A stretch of 64,000 bases of DNA from assembly GCA_038087875.1 (NCBI GenBank), contig CM075987.1:26290001-26354000 (forward strand). The letters are read 5' to 3'. A model generated the notes under the pieces. It saw only the letters and a list, made by a program, of their open reading frames with translations. It had not been told where the DNA came from and made no database searches. The stretch comes from Malacoraja senta. Lineage: Eukaryota. Shown here one piece after another: positions 1,866-62,789 of this stretch; within the stretch, counting starts at the first letter, position 1; each line of letters starts with the position of its first letter. The translations under genes were made by a program, and so were the position numbers.

Positions 1866-1995
1866 CTGAAGAAGGGTCTCGACCCGAAACGTCACCCATT
1901 CCTTCTCTAAAGAGATGCTGCCTGACCCACTGAGTTACTCCAGCTTTTTATGTCTACCTTCAGTGCAAACCAGCATCTGCAGTTCCTTCCTACAC
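1866..1995 (+). mobile_element. PLE terminal mini-copy beginning at an intact hammerhead-like core
   Basis: CTGAAGA-A-GGGT-CTCG-ACCC-GAAACGTC at 1866-1893, followed by the conserved tail ending cagttccttcctacac. Confidence 0.75.
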
Positions 1996-2074
1996 TTGTT
2001 TTCCACTGCAGAATCAAATCTTCAGCAAAGATTAAAGCCCTGTCTAATCATGCGATGGATTCCACATATCCCTC

Positions 2075-2980
2075 AGTATAAAAGGACGTTCCTTTAGAAA
2101 GGAGATGAGGATTTTTTTTTGCCAGATTGTGGTGAATCTGTGGAATTCATTGCCACAGAAGGCTGTGGAGGCCAAGTCAGTGGATATTTTTAAGGTGGAG
2201 ATCGATGGATTCTTGACTGTTATGGGTGTCAGGGGTTACAGGGAGAAGGCAGGAGAATGGAGTGCTCCAAGAAAATTTCAGATTGGGTAGACGCACAGAG
2301 TCTCTTGCCCAGAGTCATGGAATCAAGGACCACAGGACATAGGTTTAAGGTTGAGGGGGGGGAAATGATTTAATAAGCATCTGAGGGGTAACTTTTTCAC
2401 ACAAAGGGTGGTGGGTGTATGGAACAAGCTGCAAGAGGAGTTAGTTGTGGCAGGGACTATCGCAACGTTTGAAGGGGCTGTCCAACTGTGGCGACCTAAT
2501 TCGCAAGTTTAGAAGAGCTTAGGAGAGTTTGAAAAAATGTCATGTTGAAGACCTCCGTCGACTATGTTGAAGACTAGCTACGACTACCTTCGACTACCCT
2601 CGATTACCTACGACTAACATGCCGACCTACTACGACTAAACATACGAGTAAAAAAAGTATCGATTTTTTCCATGGTGAACTTTTTTTACTCGCGGGCATT
2701 TTTTCAACGTTGAAAAAAACGCCGCGACCTAGGCGAGGTCTCAAGTACGCGGGGACTACTCTCGAGCATGCTGCGAGTACGAGTCGAGGGCAAACTCGCC
2801 AGAACTCGCGGATTAGGTCGCCCAGTGGGACAGCCCCTTAAGAAACATTTAGACAGGTACATGGATAGGACAGGTTTGGAGGGATATGGGCCAAACGCAG
2901 GCAGGTTTGGCCTGTGTGGACATGTTGGGCCGAAGGGCCGGTTTCCACACTCTATGACTATGTATGACTCTATAACTATG
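2075..2980 (+). mobile_element. Two CR1 LINE 3' fragments, the second interrupted by a MITE
   Basis: VVNLWNSLPQKAVEAKS ORF at 2105-2290; second subfamily with (tatgact)-type tail at ~2950-2980. Confidence 0.8.
2473..2838. mobile_element. PIF/Harbinger-type MITE
   Basis: ~38 bp TIRs aggggctgtccaactgtggcgacctaat...attaggtcgcccagtgggacagcccct; TGA/TAA flanks split the CR1 sequence cgtttaagaaac; internal cgacta repeats. Confidence 0.85.
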
Positions 2981-3510
2981 ACAGAGCTTTAATCTTAGGC
3001 GGCGGTTTTTATTCTACTGTGGAAAACAGTAAAATTGCTTTGGTTAAAATCTAGTAATACTTCACAACCTGAGAGAGTCCCAAAATAACACGACAGCCTA
3101 TTAAGTACCTGTACAAAATGCTGTCCTTGATGCAAATGTTTTTTAAAAAGTCACGAGTCTAAAAAAAGGCAGTATCGTTCTGAGTGCAAGAATGTGAAAG
3201 ATTTCACACCACAAGGTTCCAGAAACTGTAATTAGATAATGATCAGATATTTAAAATCATCTCTTTTAATAAAACTATGAATAAATCAAGTTGCAAAATA
3301 GACAATTTGAATACAGTAGCAAGTTGTGATCAGCACAAATTTTCTATATTGAAAAGTCACGGTTAACACTGAGCGTGCCCAGCAGAAAGCTCGGTGCAAG
3401 GTAATGCCGCAGTAACTCACCAAGGCTTCGAGAAGAAAATCTCTCAAAAATCCAGGCTCACCAGTTTATAGACACAGAATGCTGGAGTAACTCAGTGGGA
3501 CAGGCAGCAT

Positions 3511-3745
3511 GAGAAAAACATTTTTCACACAGAGAGTGGTGAATCTCTGGAATTCTCTGCCACAGAAGGTAGTTGAGGCCAGTTCATTGGCTATATTTAA
3601 GAGGGAGTTAGATGTGGCCCTTGTGGTTAAAGGGATCAGGGGGTATTGAGAGAAACCAGGTACAGGATACCGAGTTGGATGATCAGCCATGATCATATTG
3701 AATGGCCTACTCCTGCACCTATTTTCTATGTTTCTATGTTTCTAT
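3511..3745 (+). mobile_element. CR1 3' fragment inserted in a PLE tail
   Basis: PLE tail gcagcat|ctctggagag is split by CR1 sequence ending in (tttctatg)n. Confidence 0.8.
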
Positions 3746-3779
3746 CTCTGGAGAGAAGGAATGGGTGACGTTTCTGGTC

Positions 3780-4070
3780 ATAGAAACATAGAAAAACAGG
3801 TGCAGGAGTAGGCCATTCGGCTCTTTGAGCCTGCACCCGTTATTCAATATGATCATGGCTGATCATCCATAATCAGTACCCCATTCCAGCTTTCTCCCCA
3901 TATCCCTTGATTCCGTTAGTCCTTAGAGTTAAATCTAATTTTCTCTTGAAAACATCCAGTGATTTGGCCTCCACTGCCTTCTGTGGCAGAGAACCCCACA
4001 GATTCACAACTCTCTGGGTGGAAACGTTTTTCCTCATCTCAGTCCTAAATGGCCTACCCCTTATTCTTAA
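3780..4070 (-). mobile_element. CR1 LINE 3' fragment
   Basis: RIRGRPFRTEMRKNVSTQRVVNLWGSLPQKAVEA; (tttctatg) tail. Confidence 0.85.
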
Positions 4071-4360
4071 GGGGCGAGACCCTTCTTCAGACAGAGTCAG
4101 GGGAGAGGGAAAAGAGAGAGAGAGAGAGAGAGAGAGATATAAAGACAGTGATATAGATACAGAACAAATGAATGAAAGATGTGCAAAAATGTACCGATGA
4201 TCAAATAATACTGGAGCCCATACGATCACAAGGAAAGAAGACCCGAAACGTCACCCATTCCTTCTCTCCAGAGATGCTGCCTGCCCCGCTGAGTAACTCC
4301 AGCATTTTGTGTCTATCTTGGGTTTAAACCAGCATCTGCCGTTCCTTCCTACCCACTACT

Positions 4361-6299: not shown

Positions 6300-6465
6300 A
6301 TGTAGGAAGGAACTGCAGATGCTGGTTTTAAATCAAAGATAGACACAAAATGCTGGAGTAACTCAGCAGGACAGGCAGCATCTCAGGCTTGAAGGATCTT
6401 CTGATTCCTTCTCTCCAGAGATGCTGCCGGTCCCGCTGAGTTACTCCTGCATTTTGTGTCTATCT
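6300..6465. mobile_element. PLE fold-back mini-element
   Basis: Minus-strand tail 6300-6384 followed by a plus-strand partial copy 6404-6465. Confidence 0.75.
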
Positions 6466-6782: not shown

Positions 6783-7432
6783 TTACTTTTACTGGTTACT
6801 CCAGTACTTTAGCCCCTTGTACATAAAACTGTATTTAATTAATTAAGTCATGGTGTCAGTAATTTTATGGAGGTTTTCTGTAGATCAGTGAACAATGTTA
6901 TCTTAACGACGAGTCAAGCTCTGATATCAATGCTAATTTATGGTAATATCTGTGTTTGTATCCAGAAATACTTTTCATTTGAGATGATGTCCCTCTGGGC
7001 TATCAAAAATTGCCACAACTTAAAATGGATTTAATTAATGCTCCCACGAGACGAGCAGTACTTACTGTATCTTTAAGATTTAACCCTACACTTTTACTAA
7101 GACACCAACTAAGACACCATGACCGCGCTTGGCCAGGCCGACCCTGCAACGCCGCCAGGACAACAGACCTTCATGGTCAGCTCAAGATCCCTGCACTTAC
7201 AACAACAGGGACATCAAAATGGCGACTCTACACCATGTAGGAAGGAACCGCTGATGCTGGTTTAAACCGAAGATAGACACAAAAAGCTGGAGTAACTCAG
7301 CGGGACGGGCAGCATCTCTGGAGAGAATGTGTAGATTAACCCTTATTAATCCATGCCATGTATAATCTCCACTACACATATGTGCATGCCACCCTTTACA
7401 TGGCATTACGGTACTACACAGCTTTACACTAG

Positions 7433-7463
<31 letters not shown>

Positions 7464-7779
7464 GCCAGCAGAGCTAGATGAGAATGGCTGGCTGTTTGAA
7501 TGTTCCCGATTGCATGCGGAATAAAGATTGATCTTCACTACGTGTGTTGCTGTGGATCATTAATGGGTGACGTTTCGGGTCCGAGTCTGAAGAAGGGTCT
7601 CAACCCGAAATGTCACCATTCCTTCTCTCCAGAGATGCTGCCTGTCCCGCTGAGCTACTCCAGCTTTTTGTGGCTATCATTGAGTCCGTATTCTGTCTGC
7701 GTACACTTGTACTGTCTCTGAGATGCTTGTCTAAGATGGATTTAAGTGTTTATGTACAGAGATACTTGTATTGAACCAT

Positions 7780-7890
7780 ATACAAAAATGGCAGAAGGGG
7801 GAGGAGTTGTACAGTTTGATAGCCACGGGGAAGAAAGATCTCCTGTGGCGTTCTGTGCTGCATCTTGGTGGAACCAGTCTGTTGCTGAAG
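7780..7890 (-). mobile_element. Rex1/Babar LINE 3' coding fragment
   Basis: RLVPPRCSTERHRRSFFPVAIKLYNSS matches the Rex1-type ORF end. Confidence 0.65.
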
Positions 7891-8174
7891 GAGCTGCAGT
7901 TGCTGGTTATTCCAGCATTTTCCACAAAAAGCTGGAGTAACTCAGTGGGACAGGCAGCCTCTCTGGATAGAAGGAATGGGTGACGTTCCAAGTCAAGACC
8001 CTTCTTCAGATTAGCAAGGTGAGTGTGGCAGTACGTGAATTCCGTACTTACTCCAATCCCATAACATACTCCTGCTCTACATGACTCATGGTAGAGTGGT
8101 GCGTGCGTCTCACAGTAAAATGATGGCTGGAAACTAAAGAATGGTTCTGGGTGTGGGAAACTTTGGTGAGTGGA

Positions 8175-14197: not shown

Positions 14198-14761
14198 AAA
14201 AGGGAAATATATATAAATCCCCGAGACACTTCTCTTGCTTGGAAAGCGGAAATATTGCTGAGTGGAAATGAATTTTAATCCATAAGAAGCCATTATGTGA
14301 AGAAATGATGCAGGGAAACCCTCAAACTGTGACAATGGACATTCAGTAATTTGTTTAACACTGAACCAGAGCACTTCAAACATTTTGATTGCATTAATTT
14401 GTCTCTTCGGATGTTTGCCAACTGACATTTATTCTTGCTATTTGGTGAGTACTGAGAAGTTTATTTGTGCCGTGTAAGCATTAGGACAAAGTTGGGCTGC
14501 TACTTGAGAGAGAAAACACAGGGGGCCTTGATGTCCTGCAGTGGTTTTGATACCTCACAAAGCAACTGTTGAGTTTGCAGCATCATATAAGGAGGTACAA
14601 GCAGGCAGCATCTCTGGAGAGAAGGAATGGGTGACGTTTCGGGTCCAGACCCTTCTTCAGACTCCTCACTCTCCGACGAAATCTCCTCAAGGAACTGCAG
14701 ATGCTGGTTTACAAAAGAAAAGACACAACGTGGAATTGTGGTAGAGCTGGTGGTACCGCAG

Positions 14762-17150: not shown

Positions 17151-17229
17151 TCACTTATAAAACAAAATGCTGGTGTAATTCAGTGGGTCAGGCAGCATCT
17201 GTGGAGAGAAGGAATGGGGTTTGGGATGT

Positions 17230-17390
17230 TTGTGGCCACCGGGAGATTGCGTGGGCCTGGGGCGGACTGAGTGGAGGTGTTCAACGAAGAACGATCGCCG
17301 AGCCTGCGCTTGGTCTCGCTGATGTGCAGGGATCCACACCTGGAACAGGGGATGCTGCAGGTGAGGTTGGAGGAGGTGCAAGTGAATGGC
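17230..17390 (-). mobile_element. PLE GIY-YIG endonuclease fragment
   Basis: FTCTSSNLTCSIPCSRCGSLHISETKRRLGDR. Confidence 0.75.
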
Positions 17391-17975
17391 TGATGAAGAA
17401 AGGTCTTAACCCAAAACATCACCCGTTCCTTCTCTCCAGAGGAACGGGTGATATTTTGGGTTGAGTTACTCCAGCATTGTGTGTGTCTATCTTCGGTGTA
17501 AACCAGCATCTGCAGTTCCTTCCGACACATCGACCCATTCTTTCCAGTGGAACTGGAGAATGTAGCCGTCAATTCCGAAGGATATACTCTAATGCATGAA
17601 ATAAAGAATCTCCTGTAATTTACAGTCACAAATGAAAGAAATAGATCAATTAGCATCGTAATTGCCTTCTCTTTTCGAATAAATAATTTCAGGCTTTACA
17701 GCTGTTTCCTTGCAGATTAACCTGCATTCATTGTGTATTGCAGCAGCTTTAGGCAGCCTCCGTGTGTGAAGAGACTTGTTGATGATTTTCCCCTGGTTAT
17801 GGCTCTGAGGATTACAAAAAACCAAGCATGGTTGCATTTCAACACTCATTTTTTTTAAGTTGCATAAAATGTTTGAATGAATTGATTTTCTCCTGGGTGA
17901 TTTTGTGTTTTTTTTAGTTTTCACTATGCAAAGCATGTCAGTCCTTAGCAAAGCAACACGTTTCCAATCTTGTTA

Positions 17976-18421
17976 AAGAATTAAGTGTTAAAGAAGGAAC
18001 TGCAGATGCTGGAAAATCGAAGGTACACAAAAATGCTGGAGAAACTCAGCGGGTGCAGCAGCATCTATGGAGCGAAGGAAATAGGTAACGTTTCGGGCCG
18101 AAACCCTTCTTCAGACTGATAGGGGGTGGGGAGAAGAAAGGGAAAAAGGAAAAAGGCGGAGGAGGAGCCCGAGGGCTGGGGGAGGGGAGGAGACAACCAG
18201 ATGGCTGATGAAGGGGAGGGGACAGCAAGGGCTAGCAGAATTGGGAGAATTCAATGTTCAAACCCCCAGGATGTAGACTGCCCAAGCGGAATATGAGGTG
18301 CATTTCCTCCAATTTACGGTGTTGCTCGCTGTGGCCATGGAGGAGACCCAGGACAGAGAGGTCAGATACGGAATGGGAGGGGGAGTTGAAGTGCTGAGCC
18401 ACCGGGAGGTCAGGTTGGTTA
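17976..18421 (-). mobile_element. Young 5'-truncated PLE insertion with TSD
   Basis: PDLPVAQHFNSPSHSVSDLSVLGL..RKLEEMHLIFRLGSLHPGGLNIEF; TSD aatcttgtta at 17966-17975 and 18422-18431. Confidence 0.85.
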
Positions 18422-19191
18422 AATCTTGTTATTGTCAATAACATACGCTGGGTTCTTATCAGAAGCGAAGATGTCATTCACAACGAAAAAAGCCTTCGTA
18501 TATCGCCCTCCTGATTCTCCCGTTGGAAAAATGTTGTCATACCTGTTCTTAAGGCTGAGTTCATGTTATGGGAGTAGAATTAGGCTATTCGGCCCATCAA
18601 TTCTACTCAAGAGTCAAAAGTCAAGAGAGTTTTTATTGTCATGTGTCCCAGATTGGACAATGACATTCTTGCCTGCTGCAGCACAACACAATATGTTAAA
18701 CATAATACAAAACGGTAGATAAAATGTCAGTGTGTCTATTAGACCATAGATACACAATAAATATACAGATATGGTGCAATAATAATAAGACTGTTATTGT
18801 TCAGAGTTTATTTGATGTCGTGTTTAATAGCCTGATGGCTGTGGGGAAGAAGCTGTTCATTCATGGCTGATCTATCTTTCCCTCTCAACCCCATTCCCCT
18901 GCCTTTGTCCCATAACCCGACACCCGTACTAATCAAGAACTGTCCATCTCTGCCTTAAAAATACCCAATAACTTGGCCTCCACAGCCGTCTGTGGCAATG
19001 AATTCCATGATTCACCACCCTCTGACTGAAGAAATTCCTCCCCATCTCCTTTCTAAAGGTACATCATTTTCTCTTTCAGATGATCCATAAAACCCACCAA
19101 CCTTTCAGTTGGGCATCAAAAAGCTGAGGGTGCTATTTGTAGTAAAAAAAAGAGTTCTTCCCTGAAGTCTTCATTATTTATCTCTCAACTA

Positions 19192-21103: not shown

Positions 21104-22168
21104 GTGGCGGCAATGGGAGCCTCGGCGTCGGTGAGGCCTTGATGTCCATGAGCGGGAGGGGAGGGGGGAGGGGGAGGGGGGGAGGGGACAGGCACGGAAA
21201 TCGCTATCTAAACATGGGGGGGACCGGGGACGCAATTTCTTGGTGGCCGCGCACATTCACACACACGTGAGGCTTCAGCCGTGGGCCCTGTGGACGGTAA
21301 TTAATGACGGGTGCCGGCAGTCGCCGAAAAAAATCACGTAAGTGGGACAGGCCCATTAATTTCCCATCCAGTCTTCAGCTCCCACTAGCCGAGATGCTGG
21401 TGCTTTGTGATAAAAGCATTGAAGCTTTTTCCTACGGTGGATTTCCTTCTGAAATGTAGCAAACTGTATTGATCGTGATTGACTCCAGGTGGCTATTTTA
21501 TTTCAGGAGTTAAAACGTAATGGCAAGTAATATAAATGGCACATATAAAAGAAAGCTAACAAACCAATGAAGAAACCATCATTGTTGGTATAATTTTCAG
21601 TAGCACTCATCGCCTGTTTGTCATCTGGTTTAGTTGTGAACAGGTGTGTTGTTGTCGTCTTGTGGATCGCTGAAAGAAATTACCTGTTAAATTGAATGTG
21701 ATTACTAATAATCGAGAGCAGACTTTTTATAAAGTGTGAATTGCAACATTATTATATGCGTACCATCCAGGTTCTGGAAAGTTAGTTTGCCACCAGTGTC
21801 GGGGAATCATACGGAGAAAACTCATGGGCGACGTTTCTGGTCGGGACCCTTCTTCAGACTTCAACCACTAGAGCTGATGCCTCACAGCGCCAGAGACCCG
21901 GGTTCAATCCTGACTTTGGGTGCCATCTGTGTGGAGTTTGCCCGTTCTCCCTCTGACCATGTAGGTTTCCTCCTGTTCGAACAAGGGTCCCGAACCGAAA
22001 CGTCACCCATCATTTAACTCCAGAGAAGCTGCCTGACCATCTGAGTCTTTGTGTCTATCTTTGGTAGATACCAGCATCAACAGTTCCTTCCTGCACACTC
22101 GTAGAATCATATAATGGTTGTAACACTGAATGAGGCCATTCAACAAGTGGAGTCTACGAAGATTCTAA

Positions 22169-24325: not shown

Positions 24326-24813
24326 TAACTGTGTAAATGTTCCTTAAGCGTTGGGAGAGTACCTGCCTCAACTACCTCCTCCGGCAGCCCCATTCCATAC
24401 ACCCACCACAACTTTGTGTGAAAAGTTACTCCTCAGGTTCTTATTAAATCTTCCCACCCCCTCACCTTAAACCTATGTCCTCTGGTTCTCAATACCCCCT
24501 ACTCTGGAGATATTGCATAAAGGCCCGAAGAACAGGTAAAAGTCAATGGCAATTTTATTGTGTATTGAAAGTGATTTTGTCAAGAAAAATGCATCTTAAA
24601 CATGCAATTTTATGGATGTATGAAATTGATTGGTAGACCATTACAAATTTTATGAAATATGTGCATTATTTAAATCAACCAGGATAATAGTGCAACACTC
24701 TTCAGCATCATGAGCTGAAGATATCAATAGCTTAAATTATTAAGGAAGTGAATATGAAAATGTATAATGACTAACATTTTAAAATGTTATGTAATGAACT
24801 AAAAAATAACTTG

Positions 24814-27574: not shown

Positions 27575-27613
<39 letters not shown>

Positions 27614-44397: not shown

Positions 44398-45806
<1,409 letters not shown>

Positions 45807-46144
45807 ATATTTTTCCTGCTACTACTTTATTGAAAGTCAGATCTGTATGAAAACTGGTCAACTTCAAGAATCTAAGTGTAGCAATCGGTGCAAACATCTT
45901 GCAGCTGCGGCACGTCGCGATGGCGTTGCTTGTGGACACAGATGTGCAGGGGCTGATATTACTTGCAATGTCAATAGAACATTGGAGGCTCTGTGTTAGC
46001 AATATGGCATCCCATAGAAGCAGATTAAAGGTTGGTGCTTGCTTATTGTCAACTGTTTTTATTAACATCACTCTCAGAGCTCATCTCTCTTATTCTCGGA
46101 CACCTCCGTTGGGGAATGTTGCCGACTGGCCCGCTCCAGACTGC

Positions 46145-46624
46145 AGGAAAGAACTGCAGATGCTGGTTTAAACCGACGATAGACACATAAAGCTGGAGTA
46201 ACTCAGCGGGACAGGCAGCATCTCTGGAGAGAAGGAATGGGTGACGTTTCGGGTGGAGACCCTTCTTCAGGGGTACGTGCTGAGGGACGCGCTGAAGCTA
46301 GGTACAGCCAATGCCAGGGCACTCCAACTTCAAGTAACCCCTACTTTCCCTCTCTCTCCATCCCTCCCCCACCCAAGTCGCACCAGCATCTCGTTCTCAC
46401 CTAGCAAACAGCTAACAATGGCCTGTTTCCCTTATCATCATCACTTTTGTTGCCTATCTTTCATTCATTTGTTCTATATATCTCTACATCACCGTCTATG
46501 CGTGTTGTTTCCTTGTGCCATGACTTTCAGTCTGAAGAAGTGTCTCGAGCCGGAACCTCACCCATTCCTTCTCTCCAGAGATGCTGCTTGTCCCACTGAG
46601 TTGCTCCAGTATTTTGTGTCTATC
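46145..46624. mobile_element. Inverted pair of PLE 3' fragments
   Basis: Minus tail 46145-46270 and plus-strand 3' region ~46322-46624. Confidence 0.7.
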
Positions 46625-47551: not shown

Positions 47552-47760
47552 AGATAGACGCATAATGTTGGAGTAACTCAGCGGGACATACAGCATCTCT
47601 GGAGAGAAGGAATGGGTGACGTTTTGTGTCGAGACCCTTATTCAGACCTGAAACGCCACCCATTCCTTCTCTCCAGAGAAGGTGCCTGTCCCGCTGAGTT
47701 ACTCCAGCATTTTGTGCCTATCTCCACTGTAAACCAGCATCTGCAATTCCTACCTACACA
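47552..47760. mobile_element. PLE fold-back mini-element
   Basis: Inverted copies joined within the hammerhead-like region (~47640-47655). Confidence 0.8.
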
Positions 47761-48361
47761 CAGAGCAGTATGTAGATTAGATGAACAAACGGGGCGGCAT
47801 GGTGGCGCAGCGGTAGAGCTGCTGCCTCACAGCGTCAGAGTCCCTGGTTCGTTCCTGACTGCGGGGAGTTTGCACGTTCTCGCTGTGACCACATGGGTTT
47901 TCTCCGGTTCCCTCCCACACTCCAAAGACATGCGGGTTTGAATGTTAATTGGCTTTGGTAAAATTGTAAATTGTCCCGAGTGTGTGCTGGATAGTGCTAG
48001 TGAACGGAGTGATCGCTGGTCGGCGCGGACTCGGTGGGCCGAAGAGCGCTGTGCCTCTGAGGTCCAAAGTTTAAACGGCAGATGGAGTTTAATCTGGGTA
48101 AGTACGAGATGTCGGACTTTGGAAGATAAAATGTCAAGGATGAGTACACAGCTACTCAGAGGTTGGTGTGTGCCTGGATCACACTTCTGGCATTGATGAT
48201 GGAAATGCAATGGTGGCAGTGAAGAAACATTTGGATATACCCAGGGATATGGAAAAAATAGAGAGATGTTGAAGATTATATCAGTGTGGTGTTGTGTGTG
48301 CGTGTGATGTGGAGGAGTGGCAGTGGACAACAGTATGAGAAAGACAACTGATACCTTCATG

Positions 48362-49275
48362 TTTAAGAAGGAACTGCAGATGCTGGAACAATTGAAGGTA
48401 GACAAAAATGCTGGAGAAACTCAGCGGGTGAGGCAGCATCTATGGAGCGAAGGAATGGGTGATGTTTCGGGTCGAGACCCTTCTTCAGACTGATGAGGGG
48501 ATGGGGGGGGGGCTGGAAGAGGAAAGGAAGAGGCGGAGATAGTGGGCTGTGGGAGAGCTGGGAAGGGGAGGGGAAAGAGGGAGAAAGCAAGGACTACCTG
48601 AAATTGGAGGTCAATGTTCACACCGCTGGGGTGTAAACTGCCCAAGCGAAATATGAGGTGCTGCTCCTCCAATTTACGGTGGGACTCAACGCGTTCATGA
48701 TGGTGTAATGGTAAAATCAGATTACAGGTGGTTTCATCTGAATGTGCGTGGCATTTGCAACAAGGCAGATGGCTTAGTGCCAGAACTGGAGATAAATTGG
48801 TTCCATCTGAGTTATTGCAGATACATGGTTGCCTGGTAACCACGGCTGGGAACTGATCTTCCAAATTACTTAATATTGAAGAAAGAAGGACAAAGTGGAA
48901 CAGTGGTTGCGATGGGAATGTGTTGGCGTTGCTATATGTCGAGAGATATTGAACCAATGAATGAAAGATATGCAAGAAAGTAACGATGACAAAGGAAACA
49001 GGTCGTTGTTAGTTGTTTGCTAGGTGAGAACTAAAAACTGGTGTGTCTTGGGTGGGGGAGAGATGGAGAGAGAAGGAATGCCGGGGTTACTTGAAGTTAG
49101 AGAAATCATTATTCATTGCACCGGGTTGTAAGCTAGCTAAGCGAAATATGAGATGATGTTCCTCCAATTTGTGTTTAGCCTCAATCTGACAATGGAGGAG
49201 GCCTAGGACAGAAAGGTGAATGTGGGAATTAGCAGGGAAAAGTGTTTGGCAACCGGGAGATCAAGTAAGTCCAGG
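48362..49275 (-). mobile_element. Two PLE 3' fragments (48362-48690; 48935-49275)
   Basis: HRKLEEQHLIFRLGSLHPSGVNID and the terminal unit. Confidence 0.8.
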
Positions 49276-49879: not shown

Positions 49880-50572
49880 GCGTTGAGTATAGAGGTTGGT
49901 AGGTCATGTTGCACTTGCATAAGACATTGGTGAGGCCACATTTTGAGTAGTGTGTTCAGTTTTGGGCACCATGTTATAGGAAAAATATTGCTTTACAATG
50001 ACGTTGCCAGGACTAGAGGGCTTGAGCTAAAGGGAGAGGTTGAGCAAGCAAGGACTCTATTCCTTAAAGCAGAGGAGGATGAGGGGTGGTCTTATAGAGG
50101 TGTACAAGATCATGAGAGGAATAGATCAGGTAGATGCACAGTGTTATTTGCCCAGAGTAGGGGAATCGAGAACCAGAGGACATGAGTTTAAGATGAGGGG
50201 AGGGGGGGAAAGGTTTAATAGGAACTTGAGAGGCAACTTTTTCTTACACAATGGGTGGTAAGCATATGGAATGAGCTGCCGGAGGAGGTAGTTGAGTCAG
50301 GTACTATCATAATACTTAAAAGACATTTGGACAGGTACATGTTTAAGAAAGAACTGCAGATGCTGGAAAAAATCAAAGGTAGTCAAAAATGCTGGAGAAA
50401 CTCAACGGGTGAGGCAGCATCTATGGAGCGAAGGAATATGTGACGTTTCAGGACGCTACCCGAAATGTCACCTATTCCTTCGTTCCAGAGATGTTGCCTC
50501 ACCCGCTGAGTTTCTCTAGCATTTTTGTCTACTTTGGACTGGTACATGGAATGGATAGGTTTAGAGGGATAT
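49880..50572 (+). mobile_element. CR1 fragment with a nested PLE fold-back (50342-50532)
   Basis: GLYSLKQRRMRGGLIEVYKIMRG; TSD tttggac(a/t)ggtacatg at 50326-50341 and 50533-50548. Confidence 0.85.
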
Positions 50573-52840: not shown

Positions 52841-53617
52841 CAATCAATCAACAATCAGTTTTATTCGTCACTTGCTCATAAAGTGCAAGTGAAATGAATT
52901 AGCTAGCAGCGGTGCAATGAGAAAGAACACACAAAAACACAATTAAAATGTAACACAAACATCCACCACAGCATTCATCACTGTGGTGGAAGGCACAAAT
53001 ATTGGCCACTCCTCCTCCATATTCCCCCGATTTCCTTGCCGATATATATAGGAGTCCACAGCTTGAACAGCGGATACAGTCTGAGGAAGGGTCTCGACCC
53101 GAAAACGTCACCCATTCCTTCCCTCCAGAGATGCTGCCTGTCCCCCTGATGTTACTCCAGCTTTTTGTGGCTAACAGCGCATGCAGTAGATGAGGTTGGA
53201 GGAAGTGAAGAGAGATCCTCTTTCATTTACACGCCCTGGTAAAGGCAAGTCTGAATGAGATTCTCTGCCAACAGTGGAGTTATGTCATTGACTCTGAGCA
53301 TTCCAGGGTCAAACATTGTTGGCAGCTCTGCAGGCACTTCACTTATCGTAATGAGCGTGGATCCAATAACACTCGAGCACCACTCGCCATCCAGGGTAAT
53401 GAAATTCCCTTCATTGGCATCAGATGCACCTCCAATCCAGTGCATTTACAACACAAACTGGCTGCTGTACAAGAATCGATTCCAGACGATCGGTTATATC
53501 CTCCTATCTTGATGGAATTACAAAGTAGCTATCAGGATCAGTGGGGCTAAATTGGATAGTCCCACTGTAGAGCTATCTGAAGCAAGAGGGGGCAGGTGGG
53601 GTGGGTTTTAGGTGAGG

Positions 53618-54612: not shown

Positions 54613-55194
54613 AAACCTACATACATGAGTACCGTTATCCTCGATTACACTGATATTGTCACAATTATCATCAGACTACTGTGCAGGAATTTCAATCAGT
54701 CCATCGGTAAGGATTCCATACAAGATACTTGATGAGCGAGTAAAGAAATGAAAGATAATTATATCAACATAGCCTTTGTTATTCAAATGAATGTTGTATG
54801 TCGCTGGATAAACTGTTACATATCATTGATGACAGGTTTGTAAAACATTCTTCTATCAAAGCCAATGTAGCTATAACCTCTAATGACAACCTGCACCAAA
54901 TGACACTATGATGTGTAGGAAGGAACTGCAGATGCCGGTTTAAGCCGAAGATAGACACAAAATGCTGGAGTAACTCAGCGGGACAGGCAGCATCTCTAGA
55001 GAGAAGGAATGGGTGACGTTTCAGGTCGAGACCCTTCTTCAGACTGAGAGTCAGGGGAAAGGGAAACGCGAGATATAGTCAGTGATGACTAGAATTAGTG
55101 TGGATGGGTGATCGTTGGTCGGCACAGACTCGGGGGGACGAAGGGCCTGTATCCACGCTGTATCTCTAAACTGAACTGTAATAACAAAGAACAA

Positions 55195-55854: not shown

Positions 55855-56590
55855 AGATGGACACAGAGAAAGCTGGGGTGACTCAACGGATCAGGCAGCA
55901 TCCCTGGAGAGAAGGAATAGGAGACGTTTCGGGTCGAGACCCTTCTTCAGACTGAGAGTCGGGGGGAAAAGGAAAACGAGAGATATAGAACAAATGAATG
56001 AGAGATATGCAAAAAAAGTAATAACGATGAAGGAAACAGGCCACTGTTAGCTGTTTGCTGGGTGAGAACAGGAAGCTGGTGTGACTTGGGTGGCGGAGGG
56101 ATGGAGGGAGAGAGGGAATGCAGGGGTTACGAAGCTAGAGGAATGAATTTCATACCGCTGGGGTGTAAGGTGCCCAAGCGAAATATGAGGCGCTGTTCCT
56201 CCAATTTGCGATTAACCTCACTCTGACAATGGAGGAGGCCCAGGACGGAAAGGTCAGTGTGAGATTGGGAAGGAGAATTAAAGTAGACGAAAATGCTGGA
56301 GAAACTCAGCGGGTGCAGCGGCATCTATGGAGCGAAGGAAATAGGCAACGTTTCGGGCCGAAACCCTTGGGTTTCGGCCCGAAACGTTGCCTATTTCCTT
56401 CAGGGTTTCAAACTTTGCCAAACCCTTCAGGGTTTCGGCCCGAAACGTTGCCTATTTCCTTCGCTCCATAGATGCTGCTGCTCCCGCTGAGTTTCTCCAG
56501 CATTTTTGTCTACCTTCGATTTTCCAGCATCTGCAGTTCCTTCTTAAACAGGAGAATTAAAGTGTTTGGCAACTGGGAGAGCAGGTAGAT
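55855..56590 (-). mobile_element. PLE 3' portion with a nested rearranged fold-back insertion (56285-56549)
   Basis: FNSPSQSHTDLSVLGLLH..KLEEQRLIFRLG; TSD aggagaattaaagt at 56271-56284 and 56550-56563. Confidence 0.88.
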
Positions 56591-57289
56591 GGCTAAATGA
56601 CACTAACTGAATTGACAACCAATTAAGACGCAGGCTACCAAGGTCAAGGCAGAATTGAGTAGAATATTTTCCTAATCTTTAGGAGATTGAATTAACTTTA
56701 CAGCTTTCAACAGGTTATGTCCTTACTTTCATATAAATACGGTTTAATACGCATTTGAAAATACTTATTAACAAATAATTCTTCTGACATTAGATTTGCA
56801 CTGATTTGGAAATGTTCAGATGGCATTTTTCAAAATACACATTGAACCAAATATGTTTTTAAAGGTTAGCTCCTGTAACCACAGGCAAATACACAAAAAA
56901 GGTAAAGCGCTGTCCCCTGACACGGTGCTGATGTTACAAAGGAAAAGGCCAAGGTCCCCTGCGATGTGTTAATGTTTTAGTTTAGAGATACAGCGAGGAA
57001 ACAGGCCCTTCGGCCCACCGAGTCTGTGCCGACCAGCGGTCCCCGCACAAATCTTTCGTTCGCCTTCATTGTTTGCAAAGATGACCCTACGTCTTGAAAT
57101 ATTTTTATGGATTTTATGCACCCCAATACCCGTGAAGAACAAGCATCCTAACTGGAACGAACATCCTAATTGAGCCTTCTATTTTAATATTCATCCTCAT
57201 CTTTTGTTAATGCAAAGCCAGTTGACGTTTGGTTAGAACCAGTTCAATGGGCTTTAAACATTTTGGTTCCATCATTAAGCATTTGTGCA

Positions 57290-57366
57290 GGAAAGAACTG
57301 AAGAAGGGTCTCGACCCGAAACGTCACTCATTCATTCCCTCCAGAGATGCTGCCTGTCCCTTCGAT
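57290..57366 (+). mobile_element. ~77 bp PLE fragment, mostly the hammerhead-like core, with a 15 bp TSD
   Basis: CTGAAGAAGGGTCTCGACCCGAAACGTC at 57298-57325; TSD ttaagcatttgtgca at 57275-57289 and 57367-57381. Confidence 0.8.
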
Positions 57367-59619
57367 TTAAGCATTTGTGCAATGCGCATCAACAGTCCAG
57401 TTGCGCTAACTCTATCCCACACACACTAGGGACAATTTACAATCATACCAAGACAATTAACCTACAAAACCCGTACGTCTTTGAAGTGTGGGAGGAAACC
57501 GGAGATACCGGGGAAAACCCACGCAGGTTATGGGGAGAACGTACAAACTCCGTACAGAGAGCACCCGTGGTCAGGATCAAACCCGGGTCCTTGGCGCTGT
57601 AAGGCTGCGACTCTACCGCTGCGTCACCATGCCGCCCCTGTCCTCATGTCCACGCCCACGCTAATGTCCTCAGATTCACCGGTGTTGCTGGGCTCAGCAC
57701 ATTGTTATTCATTGGTAAACTCATTCAGAGATTCATTTAAGGTTCACAGTCTCTATGAGTAACAAAGGCATAAGGGGGCCCACTGAGAGAACGGAGGTAC
57801 CCGGAGTGAGGGGGGGGGGCGCTGAGAACAAAGAGAACCCGGCGTAGGGGGGGAGGGGGGGTTGGAGAGAGAGGGGAGAGAGGGGGGAGCCAAGAACATA
57901 GAGGGACCCAGTGTGGGGGTGGGGGCCGTTGAGAAGAAAGAGTGACTCAGCGGGTGCAGCGGCATCTATGGAGCGAAGGAAATAGGCAACGTTTCAGACA
58001 TTGAGAGAACAAAGGGGGACCAATGGGGTCGACATTGGAGACTCTGTAACTCAGTCGCTGCCCTTTATATAGCGACTCTTTGCATACCTTGTAAAAAAGG
58101 AATCTGACTGAACCTTGGTACATGTGACAATAAAGTACCATTGAACCATTGAAGGTGTGAAGACAATGCTACCTTGGACTGACGTTAAATCCAGGGTTTG
58201 ACAATACTTTATAAGAGGCTACAATTTCTGTATTGGTCTATTAACGGTGCTGTTTATGGGCCTGAATCACATATTCAGGTTGAAACTAGTAAGCAGGATG
58301 AATATCCATCACAATGTTGGTTGGTTAGTTGAAAAGTTGGGTACAAAGCTGTATGAGGAAGGGTCTCGACCCAAAACGTCACCCATTCCTTCTCTTCAGA
58401 GATGCTGCCTGTCCCGCTGAGTTACCCCAGCATTTTGTGTCTATCCTCGATTGAGACCAGCATCTGCAGTTCTTTTCCACACATCTCCAAATATACCACT
58501 TGTGGATTAAAGACAAAATGATATGGACTTGTGACATCCAGTACTTAATTTGTGGAGTCAGGGGATATGGGGAGAAGGCAGGAACGGGGTACTGATTGGG
58601 GATGATCAGCCATGATCACATTGAATGGCGATGCTGGTTCGAAGGGCCAAATGGCCTACTCCTGCACCTATTGTCTATTGTCATGATCCCCAATGGCCTT
58701 TATAAGGCTGGTTCATTCAGCCTTCTCTGTGTTCCCCTTTTTCTTCAAAACATCTGGATCGAAGGGCCGAATTGTCTATTGTCTATGGTCTAATTGTCTG
58801 GCAGTTTTAATATCACCACATTTAAATGGTGTGGATCAAGGGCAAGTAAATTGTTATGTACTTTCTATCTTCGGTCTAAACCAGCATCTGCAGTTCCTTC
58901 CTACACATAATAGTGAGGGTTTCAGGTTCCAGTGATGGATATCTGACATCCAGGCACTGAATGTGGTCTATGGATTGCTCTTTGGGAGAACCACGGTCGT
59001 GCAGCGGTCCATTGAGACAGATTGAAGATAATCTATGAGAGGTTGGGAGACAATGTTGGGATAAATTAGATTTTATTCCGTCCCCATGAGTCACCAGAGA
59101 GTGTTCAACGTTGACATACTGTTAGGTCTGGCCATGGAGAAATCACCAGCTCACTGAGATGGCTTAATGAAGAGTAACCACTTCCACAAAACCTTTAGGT
59201 GACTTTTATCTCCGACATCAATTTCAGCAACACAGCATTGCTGTGATCGATGAGGTGGGAAGGGGAAAATATGATTGTGTTGATGTTCGGTCTCGTTTAA
59301 CACGTTGTGGAGAGGAACAATAGACCCGACTGTCAAGGAAGATAGACACAAAATGCTGGAGTAACTCAGTGGGTCAGGCAGCATCTCTGGAGAAAAGGAA
59401 TAGGTGACTCGAGACCCTTAGAATAACAGTGCATGGAAGCAGAACATTCACCCCAACTTGCACACACTGACCAACATTTTCCATCAACAGTAGTCCCACC
59501 TGCCTGCATTTGGCCCATATCCCTCTAAACCTGTCCTATCCATGTACCTGACTAATTGCTTCTTAAATGTGCGATAGTCCCTGTCTGAGGAAGGGGTGGG
59601 AGGTGAAAGTGAAGATTAA

Positions 59620-59770
59620 AGGGCCTGTCCCACTTGGGCGCCATTTGCGCGTCACACAATGCCTACATCATCACGCACCATGCGGGTAACGACGCGTGCG
59701 TCGTGCGTCATGACGCGTAAATTATGTCGCGTAAATGACGCGCAAATGCCGCCCAAGTGGGACAGGCCCT
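59620..59770. mobile_element. Short palindromic Harbinger-type MITE
   Basis: agggcctgtcccacttgggcgccatttgcgcgtca...tgacgcgcaaatgccgcccaagtgggacaggccct; TAA on both flanks. Confidence 0.9.
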
Positions 59771-60602
59771 TAAGAGGCATCAGACAGCCACATGTCCTCA
59801 AATTAAACTGCTGGAGAAACTCAACAGGTCAGGCAGCAGATGTGGAGGGAAAATGGACACTTCCTGAGATCATTCGTTCATACGTCACACAAACAGAATT
59901 AAGTCATTTGGCCCATCAAATCTATCCCACCATTCAATCATGGCTGATCTATCTCTCCCTCAAAAGCCCATTCTCCTGCCTTCTCCCCATAACCTCTGAC
60001 ACACGTACTAATCAAGAATCTACCTATCGCTGCCTTAAAAATATCCACTGACTTGGCCTCCACAGCCTTCTGTGGCAATGAATTCCACAGATGCACCACA
60101 CTCTGATTAAAGGAATTCCTCCTCATCTCAATTCTAAGGGTACAGATTACATTAAGGAAGAAGGGTCTCGACCAGAAACATCACCCATTCCTTCTCTCCA
60201 GAGATGCTGCCTGTCCCACTGAGTGACTGCAGCATTGTGTGTCAATCTTCTAATAGTGACATAAGCTGCACTGCCCCCAAAAATAAAATAGTTGGTATTT
60301 GTTGAAAAACAAACATTTCATTTGACTGTACATTTCCCACATTGAATGCAAGCTGTGAACAATTAACATCGCACATTAGACTCCAGGAGGCATGAGTTAG
60401 CAAAGCAGTTTTGTCCAACCCCCCTGCTTCTTTAGAAGATAGACACAAAATGCTGGGGTAACTCAGCAGGGGGAACCCCCGGGACACAAAGATGGCCGGG
60501 AGAGGAGAGGAGAGGAGAGAAGAGGAGAGGAGAGGAGAGGACATTGGCTCACGGGAACTGCTCCAGTACATCGAGCGCGCGGATCGACCGGACTTTGGAC
60601 TT

Positions 60603-61750
60603 TAGAAACATAGAAAATAGGTGCAGGAGTAGGCCATTTGGCCCATCGAGCCAGTGCCGCCATTCAATATGATCATGGCTGATCATCCAGAATCAGTACC
60701 CCGTTCCTGCTTTCTCCCCATATCCCTTGATTCCATTAGCCCCAAGAGCTAAATCTATCTCTCTCTTGAAAACATCCAGTGAATTGGCCTCCACTGCCTT
60801 CTGCGACAGAAAATTCCACAGATTCACAACTCACTGGGTGAAAAAAACATTCCTCATCTCAGCCCTAAATGGCCTACCCCTTATTCATAAACTGTGTGAG
60901 CCCTGATTCTGGACTCCCCCAATATCAGGAACATTTTCCCTGCAATCCCTTAAGTATTTTACATGTTTCTATAAGATCTCCTCTCATCCTTCTAAGTTCC
61001 AGTGACTTTGAATAATGGTGCCAAAAATGCCGGTGCCCGCATGTGTAATAGATGCAAAAAGAATTTCACTCTGCAGTCACATATGTGAGAATTGGAAATA
61101 TATGGGCATTACATGGTTTAACAGAGGTACTGACCTTTCTACCATTGAAGGGATATACAGGGAGCTCTGTTCGAAAGGATACCCAATATCATCACACCAG
61201 CCTGGCCAACCTGACCATGCTGCTACCAGCGGGGAGATGGGGCAGGAGCCTGGGAACAGGAGATCCCAGAGTAATTCCCAGGATGACGGGACTGTCATAT
61301 GTTGATAGAATGCAATGGCTGGGCTTGTATCCTCTGAAATTTAGAAGGATGAGAGGGTATCTTATTGAAACATATAAGTTTATTAAGGGTTTGAACATGC
61401 TAGAGGCAGGAAGCATGTTCCCGATGTTGGGGGAGTCCAGAACCAGGGGCCATAGTTTAAGAATAAGGGGTAAGCCACTAAGAACTGAGATGAGGAAAAA
61501 CTTTTTCACATAGAGAGTTGTGAGTCTGTGGAATTCTCTGCCTCAGAGGGTGGTGGAGGCTGGTTCCCTGGATGCTTTCAAGAGAGAGCTAGATAGAGCT
61601 CTTAAAAATAGCGGAGTCAGTGGATATGGGGAGAAGGCAGGAACGGGGTACTGATTGGGGATGATCAGCCATGATCACATTGAATGGCGGAGCTGGCTCG
61701 AAGGGCCGAATGGCCTACTCCTGCACCCATGGTCTATTGTCTATTGTCTA
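60603..61750. mobile_element. Two CR1 3' fragments (60603-61005 -, 61270-61750 +)
   Basis: CR1 ORF2 end motifs and microsatellite tails. Confidence 0.85.
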
Positions 61751-61961
61751 AAACCATACAGGTCAATTCAATGAACTTTAAACATTTTGGTTTCATCGTT
61801 AAACATTTGTGCAATGTGCATCAGCAGTCCAGTTGCACCCGGGAAAAACCCACGCAGGTCACGGGGAGAACGTTAAACTCCGTAGAGGCAGCGCCCGTGG
61901 TCAGGATCGAACCCAGGTCTGTGAGGCAGCGACTCTACCTGGCGTATGAAACACTCCTCAG

Positions 61962-62180
61962 TCTTTTTTTTTTATTATCAAAATTTTATTCAATTATTAA
62001 AAATAAGATTTACAATTCAATAAAAAAAATAGAACCCACAACTATGTTACAATCCTTGTCGAGGATGCATTCAACCCCCCCGCGGTGCCCAGCGGTCCCG
62101 GAAATCCCCCAGGGTGCCCATGGACAGTGCGAAGTCCCTCCAACACCACGAAACCCCGGAAAAGGGGCAGGCATGTACAC
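61962..62180 (-). mobile_element. Tx1-like LINE 3' end fragment
   Basis: Frameshifted CLPLFRGF..LE/RDFALSMGTLGDFRDRWAPRG/VECILDKDCNIV, then an aataaa-containing UTR and an A-tail. Confidence 0.55.
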
Positions 62181-62789
62181 CTCACTCTTGACATGGATCC
62201 AGAGATCTCCATACTCCAAAATGAGTCTGAAGGAGGGTCTCGACCCGAAACGTCACACATTCCTTCTCTCCAGAGATGCTGCCTGTTACTCCAGCATTTT
62301 GTGTCTATCATCGGTGTAAACCAGCATCTGCAGTTCCTTTCCACACATCTCCAAATATACCACTAATAGAGTAAAGACACAAAACGATAGTGGCTTGCGA
62401 GATTACCTAATTGTCGGGCAGTTTTAATATCACCATGTCTAAATGGTGTGGATCAATGGCAAATAGATTGTTCAGTACTTCTGCAGCATTTACCACATGC
62501 TGTGCTGCAAATGGAGGATGTGGGATGATATATTAATCGGCTCTCAGCTTTCAATTAGTTTCAGAACAATTAGAAAATGTTTGCACAGCACATCAGTGTA
62601 TCGGCAGCCAAGCAGCAAGTTAGACAACGTCAGGGCTTTTTCGACAAACAAGAAATTACCGGCACACAACTTTCACCTCTGTCTCGCTTTCCTCCTCCAA
62701 TCCCATATCTCTTAACATTTAAGAATCCAGACGATTCTTTCATGCAGATGCATGAAGCCAGCAGATCTGAACGGGTTTCTGAAGAAGGG

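What the first reader, a model, noticed from the sequence alone, without database searches (positions are those of the whole stretch)
1866..62254. Minimal hammerhead-ribozyme-like core repeated about twenty times in Penelope-derived mini-elements
Seen: the motif CTGAAGA-A-GGGT-CTCG-ACCC-GAAA-CG-TC is intact on + at 1866 and 57298 and on - at ~25263-25290. Near-intact copies lie at 7587, 53081, 62227, 14632, 46241, 55012 and 55922. A second subfamily reads CTGAAGA-A-GGGT-TTCG-GCCC-GAAA-CG-TT (- at ~18086-18114 and ~24914-24941), so stem II pairing is kept despite base changes. Established: CUGANGA...GAAA...UH is the hammerhead core, and Penelope-like elements carry minimal type I hammerheads whose vestigial stem III has a palindromic loop and is thought to work as a dimer. 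Here that palindrome is ACGT. Inference: many copies are ~130 nt units running from about this core to the element 3' end, so they behave like a ribozyme-bearing, SINE-like derivative at very high density. Stem I is only 2-3 bp, so activity is uncertain.
Basis: partly seen in the sequence, partly recalled or inferred. Interest (0 to 1): 0.7.

Follow-up and report, generated by a model that had tools for sequence, protein, structure and literature searches.

The report
Hammerhead ribozymes in Penelope retroelement ends
These repeats are the ribozyme-bearing end pieces of a Penelope-like jumping gene that litters a skate- or ray-like genome; this kind is already described, and the one extra clue is that many copies begin just before the ribozyme, where the element's RNA may start.

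Summary
In detail: 20 copies lie within 3 substitutions of the 28-nt motif, 6 are perfect, and 12 pass a minimal-hammerhead descriptor against 0.11 in shuffles. The motif is the minimal type I hammerhead in the pLTR of a Penelope-like element (PLE), probably Neptune-type. It lies in sense behind GIY-YIG remnants. The copies show published PLE hallmarks: two 3' ends about 37 nt apart (the 'tail'), 14 head-to-head pairs each with one tailed arm, and 8-16 bp target duplications. A separate SINE is not established. Only 11 of 59 arms are ~130-nt units, 13 run on into the 3'UTR or endonuclease, and copies decay neutrally. Stem I is 0-3 bp and the monomer fold sequesters the core; cleavage was not tested. 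One arm of 59 starts at the cut site, whereas 21 start at -4..+3 around TCAGT, just before CUGA. A hint of an extra G there suggests reverse-transcriptase run-off at a capped RNA start (inferred). This scan has noted the same kind, and the same pile-up, in other genomes. Verdict: new member of a known kind.

The parts
1866..1995 (+). Short unit, +1 to +130 (numbering: +1 = C3 of CUGA; predicted cut after +28). Perfect core 1866-1893, stem I 5' strand lost, tail present
390..483 (-). Unit -2 to +92, decayed core; runs on into a variant ~125-nt extension shared with the 3468 copy
3468..4355 (.). Head-to-head pair: minus arm from the 3'UTR to +92 (split by two later insertions), plus arm +16 to +131 with tail
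6301..6465 (.). Head-to-head pair without core: minus arm +35 to +129 (tail), plus arm +33 to +94
7236..7678 (.). Head-to-head pair: minus arm +16 to +129 (split), plus arm -3 to +93 with core at 7587 and a G before -3
7887..8010 (-). Unit -1 to about +124, decayed core
14602..14663 (-). Unit -3 to +59, core at 14660, stem I 2 bp, G before -3; a tail piece (14688-14713) lies just upstream
17162..17529 (.). Head-to-head pair: minus arm begins in the GIY-YIG region (17398) and has an internal deletion; plus arm +2 to +131
17986..18438 (-). Subfamily B1 copy: GIY-YIG C-terminus, 3'UTR, perfect B core (18087-18114), tail
21813..22097 (.). Head-to-head pair of a diverged subfamily (loop II CCCG), 8-bp TSD, repeat fragment between the arms
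24812..25165 (-). Subfamily B1 copy: end of GIY-YIG, 3'UTR, perfect B core (24914-24941), tail, 12-bp TSD
25197..25747 (.). Head-to-head pair: minus arm -30 to +94 with the best hammerhead (25263-25290, stem I 3 bp); plus arm -12 to +131; repeat between the arms
28906..29022 (-). Unit -16 to +99, decayed core
30808..31012 (.). Head-to-head pair joined at the CUGA box; plus arm +3 to +130
34771..35640 (-). Longest PLE relic: GIY-YIG domain (35296-35631), 3'UTR, unit with the core deleted, tail. It hosts a B1 head-to-head pair (35144-35299) with a 16-bp TSD
36244..36859 (.). Head-to-head pair: minus arm from the 3'UTR to +90 with core at 36333 (stem I 2 bp); plus arm split, with tail; 9-bp TSD
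38507..38640 (-). Unit -2 to +131, decayed core
38726..38890 (.). B2 head-to-head pair joined at +27..+29; holds the only arm that starts at the predicted cut site; 12-bp TSD
39403..39536 (-). B2 solo unit -3 to +130, 10-bp TSD
46142..46624 (.). Head-to-head pair: minus arm +1 to +129 (core at 46270, no stem I); plus arm from the 3'UTR (46322) to +93
47552..47760 (.). Head-to-head pair, arms -2 to +94 and +16 to +131, 3-nt overlap at the junction, 10-bp TSD with 1 mismatch
48360..48700 (-). Subfamily B2 copy: end of GIY-YIG, 3'UTR, core at 48488 (G16.2 changed to A), tail
50339..50535 (.). B2 head-to-head pair joined in stem II, 16-bp TSD with 1 mismatch
53077..53173 (+). Solo unit -4 to +91 with a 10-bp TSD, inserted into a minus-strand GIY-YIG relic (about 52561-53210)
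54912..55090 (-). Unit -48 to +131, core at 55042; used as the reference for laying reads
55855..56600 (-). Long A copy: GIY-YIG end, 3'UTR, perfect core (55923-55950), ends at +94. It hosts a B1 head-to-head insertion (56280-56550) with a 14-bp TSD
57298..57364 (+). Perfect core from +1, no stem I, internally deleted unit, 15-bp TSD
58351..58907 (+). Unit -2 to +131, then about 130 nt shared with the 3' flank of the 62224 copy (split by another repeat), then a tail piece +88 to +131
60157..60250 (+). Unit +3 to +96
62224..62347 (+). Unit -3 to +131, core at 62227 (A9 changed to G), G before -3
62778..63292 (+). Unit -1 to +130, split in loop II by a later repeat insertion (62793-63173)

Best explanation
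The motif is the minimal type I hammerhead in the pLTR of an endonuclease-positive Penelope-like retrotransposon (probably Neptune-type) in an elasmobranch genome, most likely a skate or ray. The copies are dead-on-arrival cDNAs of the element's end. Shown in the sequence: the order GIY-YIG, stop, pyrimidine-rich 3'UTR, TCAGT, hammerhead, about 65 nt, proximal end (+92..+96), about 37-nt tail, distal end (+127..+131); head-to-head pairs with one tailed arm; TSDs; and 5' ends piled up at -4..+3. Inferred from the anole PLE biochemistry: the RT-endonuclease nicks both target strands and primes at two internal sites (proximal and distal), and the two cDNAs are joined head to head. Inferred and weaker: many cDNAs stop at -4..+3 because the template RNA begins there, at an initiator-like TCAGT. 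The short units would then be run-off products of the 5' pLTR copy of an uncleaved RNA, not ribozyme cleavage products. The hammerhead is probably off as a monomer and needs a second copy and/or the element's protein. Genomic copies are not under selection.
For: GIY-YIG remnants in sense upstream of the unit in at least 5 copies. The best homologues are from Leucoraja (65%, 72%), Hypanus, Mobula, Rhincodon and Stegostoma, with GIY-YIG, RT and, in 5 of the 6 elasmobranch hits, a CxxxxCxxC linker (degenerate in P0006). 3' ends: 29 of 68 pieces at +124..+131 and 22 at +84..+99; the top loose ends in public runs fall at +94..+96 and +131/+132. Exactly one tailed arm in 14 of 14 close head-to-head pairs (15 of 17 with three loose candidates, p about 0.001). 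TSDs of 12-16 bp in 4 of these pairs and 8-10 bp in 3 more. 5' ends: 21 of 59 arms at -4..+3 (0.113 per nt against 0.005 per nt over +4..+90) and 1 at +29. Position -3 is among the top 5' loose ends in both contig runs (895 and 972 contigs), and the first loose letter of the consensus is G in element sense amid A/T-rich flank. 3 of 5 window arms that start at -3 have G before it. Published parallels: PMC4209133, PMC3846280, PMC8557442, PMC11167929.
Against: The window holds no RT, no full-length element and no direct pLTR-ORF-pLTR tandem, so the clade rests on homologues and the RNA start cannot be mapped. The extra G is not significant in the window (3 of 5, p=0.16), and the lay gives only a plurality letter, not a fraction. 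5' ends spread over 7 positions. Part of the genome-wide depth drop upstream of the core is subfamily divergence of the 3'UTR (loose ends at -4/-5 have a repeat-like consensus). The RNA runs show no pile-up of molecule starts (table 6 is empty), though those libraries are ill suited. Stem I (2-3 bp) is shorter than the 4-5 bp described for Schistosoma min-HHRs. Core conservation across subfamilies is not significant. 3 of 59 random position pairs also scored 11 or more in the TSD test. 5' ends were curated by hand from local alignments.
Confidence: 0.8

Rival explanations
1. The short units are a non-autonomous SINE-like family: a few short master copies are transcribed on their own and mobilised in trans by the PLE protein.
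For: 21 of 59 arms share nearly the same 5' end. Solo units carry their own TSDs (39536, 53077, 57298). 58351 and 62224 share the unit plus about 130 nt of 3' flank, as a 3' transduction from a short copy would give. The unit holds both RT start sites. PLE cis sequences can act in trans (PMC3846280 passages).
Against: 5' ends vary from -4 to +3 and occur in subfamilies A, B2 and the diverged one alike. The unit sequence of short copies is not distinct from that of long copies in the alignment. Short arms pair with long, endonuclease-bearing arms inside one insertion (17162/17529, 46142/46624). No tRNA, 5S or 7SL match overlaps the unit.
Confidence: 0.25
2. The 5' pile-up is premature drop-off of the reverse transcriptase where it leaves the structured hammerhead region and enters the pyrimidine tract, or at a 3' splice site (polypyrimidine-CAG|T), and does not mark an RNA start.
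For: 10 more arms end inside the hammerhead (+4..+21; 0.0136 per nt). The region folds stably. All subfamilies have a pyrimidine tract and CAG|T before CUGA, and in D. virilis the intron ends at helix I (PMC4209133).
Against: The peak is at the 5' edge, after the structure has been passed. No shared upstream exon is seen before -1 in the 11 flanks inspected. The G plurality at the -3 junction is not predicted by this model.
Confidence: 0.25
3. The copies are self-cleaving retrozyme-like RNAs: hammerhead cleavage, and perhaps circularisation, produces the transposing unit.
For: Intact core in 12 copies. One arm starts at +29 and four within +27..+33. A few head-to-tail joints occur in public contigs (11-31 contigs per joint).
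Against: Most arms keep the core upstream of the cut site, so their templates were uncleaved. The window has no tandem array of complete A/B units. Stem II forms with probability 0.05 or less in 5 of 5 monomers tested. The anole PLE uses unprocessed RNA (PMC11167929).
Confidence: 0.07
4. The hammerhead match is a vestige or a coincidence, and the segment is conserved for another reason (promoter, protein-binding site or coding N-terminus).
For: Stem I is 2-3 bp. No Rfam match. The whole unit, not only the core, is conserved between subfamilies. One reading frame runs through the unit in several copies.
Against: All diagnostic min-HHR features co-occur (extra base after A9, G10.1-C11.1, palindromic 15.2-16.2) at the position where PLEs carry them. 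Homology between subfamilies with unrelated 3'UTRs begins at TCAGT-CUGA.
Confidence: 0.12

Closest known systems
Minimal hammerheads (min-HHR) in PLTRs of metazoan Penelope-like elements (Cervera and De la Pena 2014, PMC4209133; parts 1-2 of 4 read)
   Same: CUGANGA, an extra base after A9, G10.1-C11.1, GAAA, palindromic 15.2-16.2 with no loop III, UH; located in the pLTR; mostly single motifs from truncated PLEs; opposite-strand pairs 100-700 bp apart; thousands of copies per vertebrate genome
   Different: Helix II is 4 bp and helix I 2-3 bp, shorter than the 7-8 and 4-5 bp given for Schistosoma. Cartilaginous fish are not named in the parts read; the supplements were not seen. Density is far higher: 20 near-intact cores in 64 kb.
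Poseidon from Anolis carolinensis, PAc (Frangieh et al. 2024, PMC11167929; parts 1-2 of 4 read)
   Same: Two RT start sites 30-40 nt apart downstream of the hammerhead that define the tail; both strands cut and extended; hammerhead inactive without protein; uncleaved RNA is the substrate
   Different: PAc is Poseidon clade with its ATG at stem II. Here the homologues carry the Neptune/Nematis linker and the core reads CUGAAGA with no ATG. A pile-up of 5' ends at the hammerhead's upstream edge is not reported in the parts read.
Head-to-head pLTR insertions of EN+ PLEs (Arkhipova et al. 2013, PMC3846280; Craig et al. 2021, PMC8557442; passages read)
   Same: Adjacent inverted 5'-truncated copy, tail on one arm, 8-10 bp TSDs, palindromes or overlaps at the junction, solo pLTRs, an Inr-like TCACT in the pLTR
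   Different: Here nearly all insertions are under 500 nt, and TSDs reach 16 bp.
Non-LTR retrozymes of animals (Li, Clavereau and Pollet, bioRxiv 10.64898/2026.07.22.740005; parts 1-3 of 5 read)
   Same: Non-coding, hammerhead-bearing derivatives of PLE pLTRs, also reported in one chondrichthyan; many monomers
   Different: Retrozymes are defined by head-to-tail tandem units. The window has dispersed monomers and head-to-head pairs.

Membership tests
PLE minimal hammerhead (min-HHR) | CUGANGA, GAAA and UH boxes around a helix II | tested here: met
   12 descriptor hits against 0.11 in shuffles
PLE minimal hammerhead (min-HHR) | Extra base after A9; G10.1-C11.1 pair; palindromic 15.2-16.2 | tested here: met
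   Extra base in 12 of 12 hits; G-C in 10 of 12; CG palindrome (ACGT) in 10 of 12
PLE minimal hammerhead (min-HHR) | Short helix I (4-5 bp in the Schistosoma families) | tested here: inconclusive
   2 bp in 6 copies, 3 bp in 1, 0 bp in 5; shorter than described, though D. virilis has 2 bp
PLE minimal hammerhead (min-HHR) | Located in the pLTR behind the GIY-YIG domain | tested here: met
   18438-17986, 25165-24812, 48700-48360, 56600-55855, 35640-34771
PLE minimal hammerhead (min-HHR) | Covariation across families | tested here: inconclusive
   One one-sided change (U-A to U.G) in stem II; core 0 of 11 against 20 of 103 downstream differences; RNAalifold does not recover the hammerhead fold
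PLE minimal hammerhead (min-HHR) | Self-cleavage as a dimer or with protein help | not testable with these tools
   Folding only: the constrained hammerhead fold is 3.6-10.5 kcal/mol above the minimum in 5 of 5 monomers
Rfam hammerhead families | Covariance-model match | tested here: not met
   No hammerhead family among 63 matches at E<=10; the motif is much shorter than canonical hammerheads
EN+ Penelope-like element | C-terminal GIY-YIG with the CCHH motif | tested here: met
   35296-35631(-) is 55-65% identical to elasmobranch proteins that score GIY-YIG (E 1e-4 to 8e-3, most below the Pfam cut-off); the fragment itself has no GIY-YIG Pfam hit
EN+ Penelope-like element | RT domain fused upstream | tested here: inconclusive
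   No RT match in the window (tblastn); present in homologues P0004, P0019, P0022
EN+ Penelope-like element | 30-40 bp tail on one end; adjacent inverted 5'-truncated copy; variable TSD | tested here: met
   Ends at +92..96 and +127..131; 14 of 14 close pairs with one tail; TSDs of 8-16 bp
Neptune/Nematis clades | CX2-5CxxC linker before the endonuclease | tested here: inconclusive
   Present in homologues P0001-P0004; the window relic is truncated just after it; no tree was built
Non-LTR retrozyme | Head-to-tail tandem units, each with a hammerhead | tested here: not met
   No tandem array of complete A/B units among 68 pieces; only a few head-to-tail joints in public contigs
SINE | tRNA-, 5S- or 7SL-derived Pol III head | tested here: not met
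   No such Rfam match at E<=10; ARAGORN was not run
SINE | Discrete master with its own 5' end and diagnostic changes | tested here: inconclusive
   5' ends spread over -4..+3 in several subfamilies; one possible re-copied short unit; no genome for a phylogeny

The most novel reading that the evidence does not exclude
The element's capped Pol II transcript begins at the A of TCAGT, the 5' strand of stem I, so the hammerhead is the extreme 5' end of the PLE RNA. Internal RT priming 95 or 130 nt downstream then yields run-off cDNAs, with the cap copied as an extra G. These carry a complete start site, ribozyme and both RT start sites, and can be transcribed and recopied. That would be a built-in route from a PLE to a Pol II, SINE-like family with hundreds of thousands of pieces, and a fossil record of how seldom the ribozyme cuts the template in vivo.
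Probability: 0.35. Interest if true: 0.55.

Novelty: new member of a known kind. Interest (0 to 1): 0.27.

Why it matters
The kind has been known since 2014, and this scan has found it in several other genomes. The value lies in scale and in what the ends record. Two public contig sets gave 353,343 and 277,326 laid pieces (pieces, not copies), and 0.3-0.4% of reads in two RNA runs carry the unit, nearly all running on into other sequence. If the 5' pile-up marks a capped start, a genome-wide junction census would test two open points of PLE biology without bench work: where transcription starts relative to the hammerhead, and whether cleaved RNA is ever the template. The 14-of-14 one-tail rule also fits two-strand priming at the two RT start sites seen in vitro.

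Tried and rejected
No genome is held for the window, so no genome-wide junction count was possible. Exact-pattern scans of viral, bacterial and metagenome collections gave 0 hits or 3 short chance matches with no unit around them. Rfam gave only hairpin microRNA-like matches far below their gathering scores, several on the head-to-head inverted pairs. Pfam on six window ORF pieces found no GIY-YIG or RT above cut-off. The sequencing-run search listed no holder on record as RNA, which is no evidence on expression. RNAalifold on 17 copies recovered only an 8-bp downstream helix with no two-sided change. Dimer energies were uninformative: stem II plus intermolecular helix III scored about -10 against a cofold minimum of -28 to -31 kcal/mol, with stem I not modelled. 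The spliced-template idea was dropped because no shared upstream exon was seen. The 7:1 strand bias in the single-cell run was not taken as element transcription; internal priming on the A-rich antisense of the pyrimidine tract would explain it (inference). Loose ends at -4/-5 and +41 were rejected as true ends because their consensus is repeat-like. Selection on genomic copies was rejected: the core CpG base G12 decays like other CpGs (16.7% against 15.8% in the window; about 14% against 13% in run X15). Non-CpG core 3.7% against 6.9% elsewhere (p=0.08) is confounded by how the copies were chosen. Paper searches 'hammerhead ribozyme'+'elasmobranch' (0 papers) and 'hammerhead'+'Leucoraja' (60 papers; the 10 listed concern the fishes) found no report of this family; that library lacks most subscription journals and Repbase. 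For the 59-arm count, 12 of the 68 pieces were dropped as weak or divergent hits or merged as split parts, and one 14-nt arm start at 62779 was added by hand.

Full report
Observation. Every coordinate in the finding was checked. Six copies match the A or B 28-mer perfectly, 12 within one change, 20 within three and 30 within six. A profile of the unit finds 68 pieces, which I merged by hand into 59 arms. PLE-derived sequence is about 8.8 kb, 13.8% of the window.

Origin. The unit is the end of a Penelope-like element. Fragments of a GIY-YIG endonuclease lie in the same sense directly upstream in five copies. The best piece (35296-35631, minus) has 26 homologues among 167 candidates; the top six are skate, ray and shark proteins at 55-72% identity. 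They score GIY-YIG weakly and some score RT. P0001-P0004 carry a CxxxxCxxC linker, which Craig et al. assign to the Neptune and Nematis clades (passages). The zebra shark protein P0006 reads through into a peptide that matches the hammerhead frame with a CUGAUGA core (my reading). No RT lies in the window. The host is therefore an elasmobranch, most likely a batoid (inference). At least four different 3'UTRs precede the unit, and similarity between them begins at TCAGT-CUGA.

Anatomy. Numbering sets +1 at C3, with the predicted cut after +28. 3' ends are bimodal: 29 of 68 pieces end at +124..+131, 22 at +84..+99 and 17 elsewhere. Public runs show the same two ends among their top loose ends. 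The gap of about 37 nt is the PLE tail, which Frangieh et al. tie to two internal RT start sites. Fourteen head-to-head pairs whose arms abut, or are separated by 60 nt or less or by a repeat-rich spacer, each have exactly one tailed arm; of three looser candidates one fits and two have no tail. Seven of the 14 have TSDs of 8-16 bp, and four solo copies have TSDs of 10-15 bp; 3 of 59 random controls scored as high as the best TSDs. Arkhipova et al. 2013 and Craig et al. 2021 describe this structure (passages).

5' ends. Of 59 arms, 21 start at -4..+3, 10 inside the hammerhead (+4..+21), one at +29 and 13 upstream of -5. The rate at -4..+3 is 0.113 per nt against 0.005 per nt over +4..+90 (the Poisson p of 2e-21 overstates the case because the window was chosen after looking). 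So templates were mostly uncleaved, as for the anole element. The peak sits on TCAGTCT, which fits the initiator consensus YYANWYY with A at -3 (consensus recalled; an Inr-like TCACT in a rotifer pLTR is noted in PMC3846280). Three of five arms that start at -3 have a G before it (p=0.16). In both contig runs, -3 is one of six loose-end rows shown (895 and 972 contigs), and its consensus starts with G in element sense, followed by A/T-rich flank. Untemplated G at full-length 5' junctions is attributed to cap copying in L1 and SVA (PMC3287187 passages). Against this: the lay gives no fraction, 1179 rows were not shown, the neighbouring loose ends at -4/-5 are subfamily divergence, and neither RNA run shows a pile-up of starts.

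Ribozyme. All min-HHR hallmarks listed by Cervera and De la Pena are present. In monomers stem II forms with probability 0.05 or less in 5 of 5 copies, because the GAAGGG segment pairs with UUCCUUC downstream (3 A copies) or with the 3' end (2 B1 copies), and the hammerhead fold lies 3.6-10.5 kcal/mol above the minimum. This fits an off state that needs a partner or protein, but folding programs do not model hammerhead tertiary structure. Among the A, B1 and B2 majorities the core has 0 of 11 differences and the downstream region 20 of 103, which is suggestive only. The stem II change is a single wobble. Genomic copies decay neutrally at core CpG sites. Published activity of such motifs is low: weak in dimers, and 1 of 9 Xenopus dimers cleaved.

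SINE question. There is no Pol III head, no fixed 5' end, and short arms share insertions with long ones. But solo units have their own TSDs, and 58351-58863 repeats the 62224 unit plus about 130 nt of its 3' flank and then ends in a tail piece. That could be a 3' transduction from a short copy, or an old local duplication. RNA reads carry the unit often (54,386 of 12.9 million and 54,782 of 17.6 million reads), but 89-95% run on into unlike sequence, on both strands in the bulk run, as embedded copies would.

Novelty. The ribozyme kind, its place in the pLTR, the tail and the inverted pairs are in print. I found no paper on this elasmobranch family in two searches, but supplements and repeat databases were not seen. 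Earlier notes of this scan report the same kind in at least 5 other genomes and the same 5' pile-up in a shark-like genome. I looked that note up after my own count; it is not independent evidence. Papers seen: PMC4209133 parts 1-2 of 4; bioRxiv 10.64898/2026.07.22.740005 parts 1-3 of 5; PMC11167929 parts 1-2 of 4; passages of PMC8557442, PMC2377424, PMC3846280 and PMC3287187; the others as search listings only. Verdict: real, correctly identified in the main, a new member of a known kind; interest 0.27, rising to about 0.55 if the capped-start reading is confirmed.

Noticed in passing
12294-12421 and 12707-12827 (-): Two direct copies about 405 nt apart (85% alike) of a divergent hammerhead-like motif (CUGAGGA core, damaged GAAA) after a pyrimidine tract, with an unrelated downstream sequence; possibly pLTRs of another PLE family, next to an assembly gap.
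   Followed up: partly
264-400 and 3350-3478 (-): Two copies continue past +92 into a shared ~125-nt sequence (77% alike) that ends in a tail-like piece; a variant subfamily or composite.
   Followed up: partly
58351-58907 and 62224-62480 (+): The unit plus about 130 nt of 3' flank is shared (81-88%); the 58351 copy then ends in a tail-only piece. Possible 3' transduction with a template switch at the proximal RT start.
   Followed up: partly
35144-35299, 53077-53173, 56280-56550: Three TSD-bounded insertions landed inside GIY-YIG relics of older PLE copies; too few to call a preference.
   Followed up: partly
4071/3779 (-) and 62792/63174 (+): Two independent CR1-like insertions (label recalled) split the unit at nearly the same place in loop II (+14..+16).
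   Followed up: no
34891, 36576, 57995, 59419: Four copies have lost part of the core or stem II by short deletions between direct micro-repeats.
   Followed up: no
just upstream of the core, e.g. 55043-55056 (-): Unrelated 3'UTRs all end in a pyrimidine tract with a CTRAY-like word a few bases before CAG|T, resembling a branch point and 3' splice site; variants are also seen in loose ends of public runs.
   Followed up: partly
unit +1..+131, e.g. 47645-47760 and 62227-62319 (+): One reading frame runs through much of the unit in several A copies; it may be the ORF N-terminus, but this family's core has no ATG.
   Followed up: no
loop II of all subfamilies: Loop II varies CUCG / UUCG / CCCG, all of the YNMG tetraloop type (class recalled).
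   Followed up: no
4663-5682 (+), 10196-10840 (-), 39785-40522 (-): Long ORF remnants of other LINE-type elements; the first scores zf-RVT weakly (E 8e-4).
   Followed up: partly
25904-27796, 44200-45999, 51600-52350: Long degenerate (CA)n microsatellite arrays; the window also holds 200 N.
   Followed up: no
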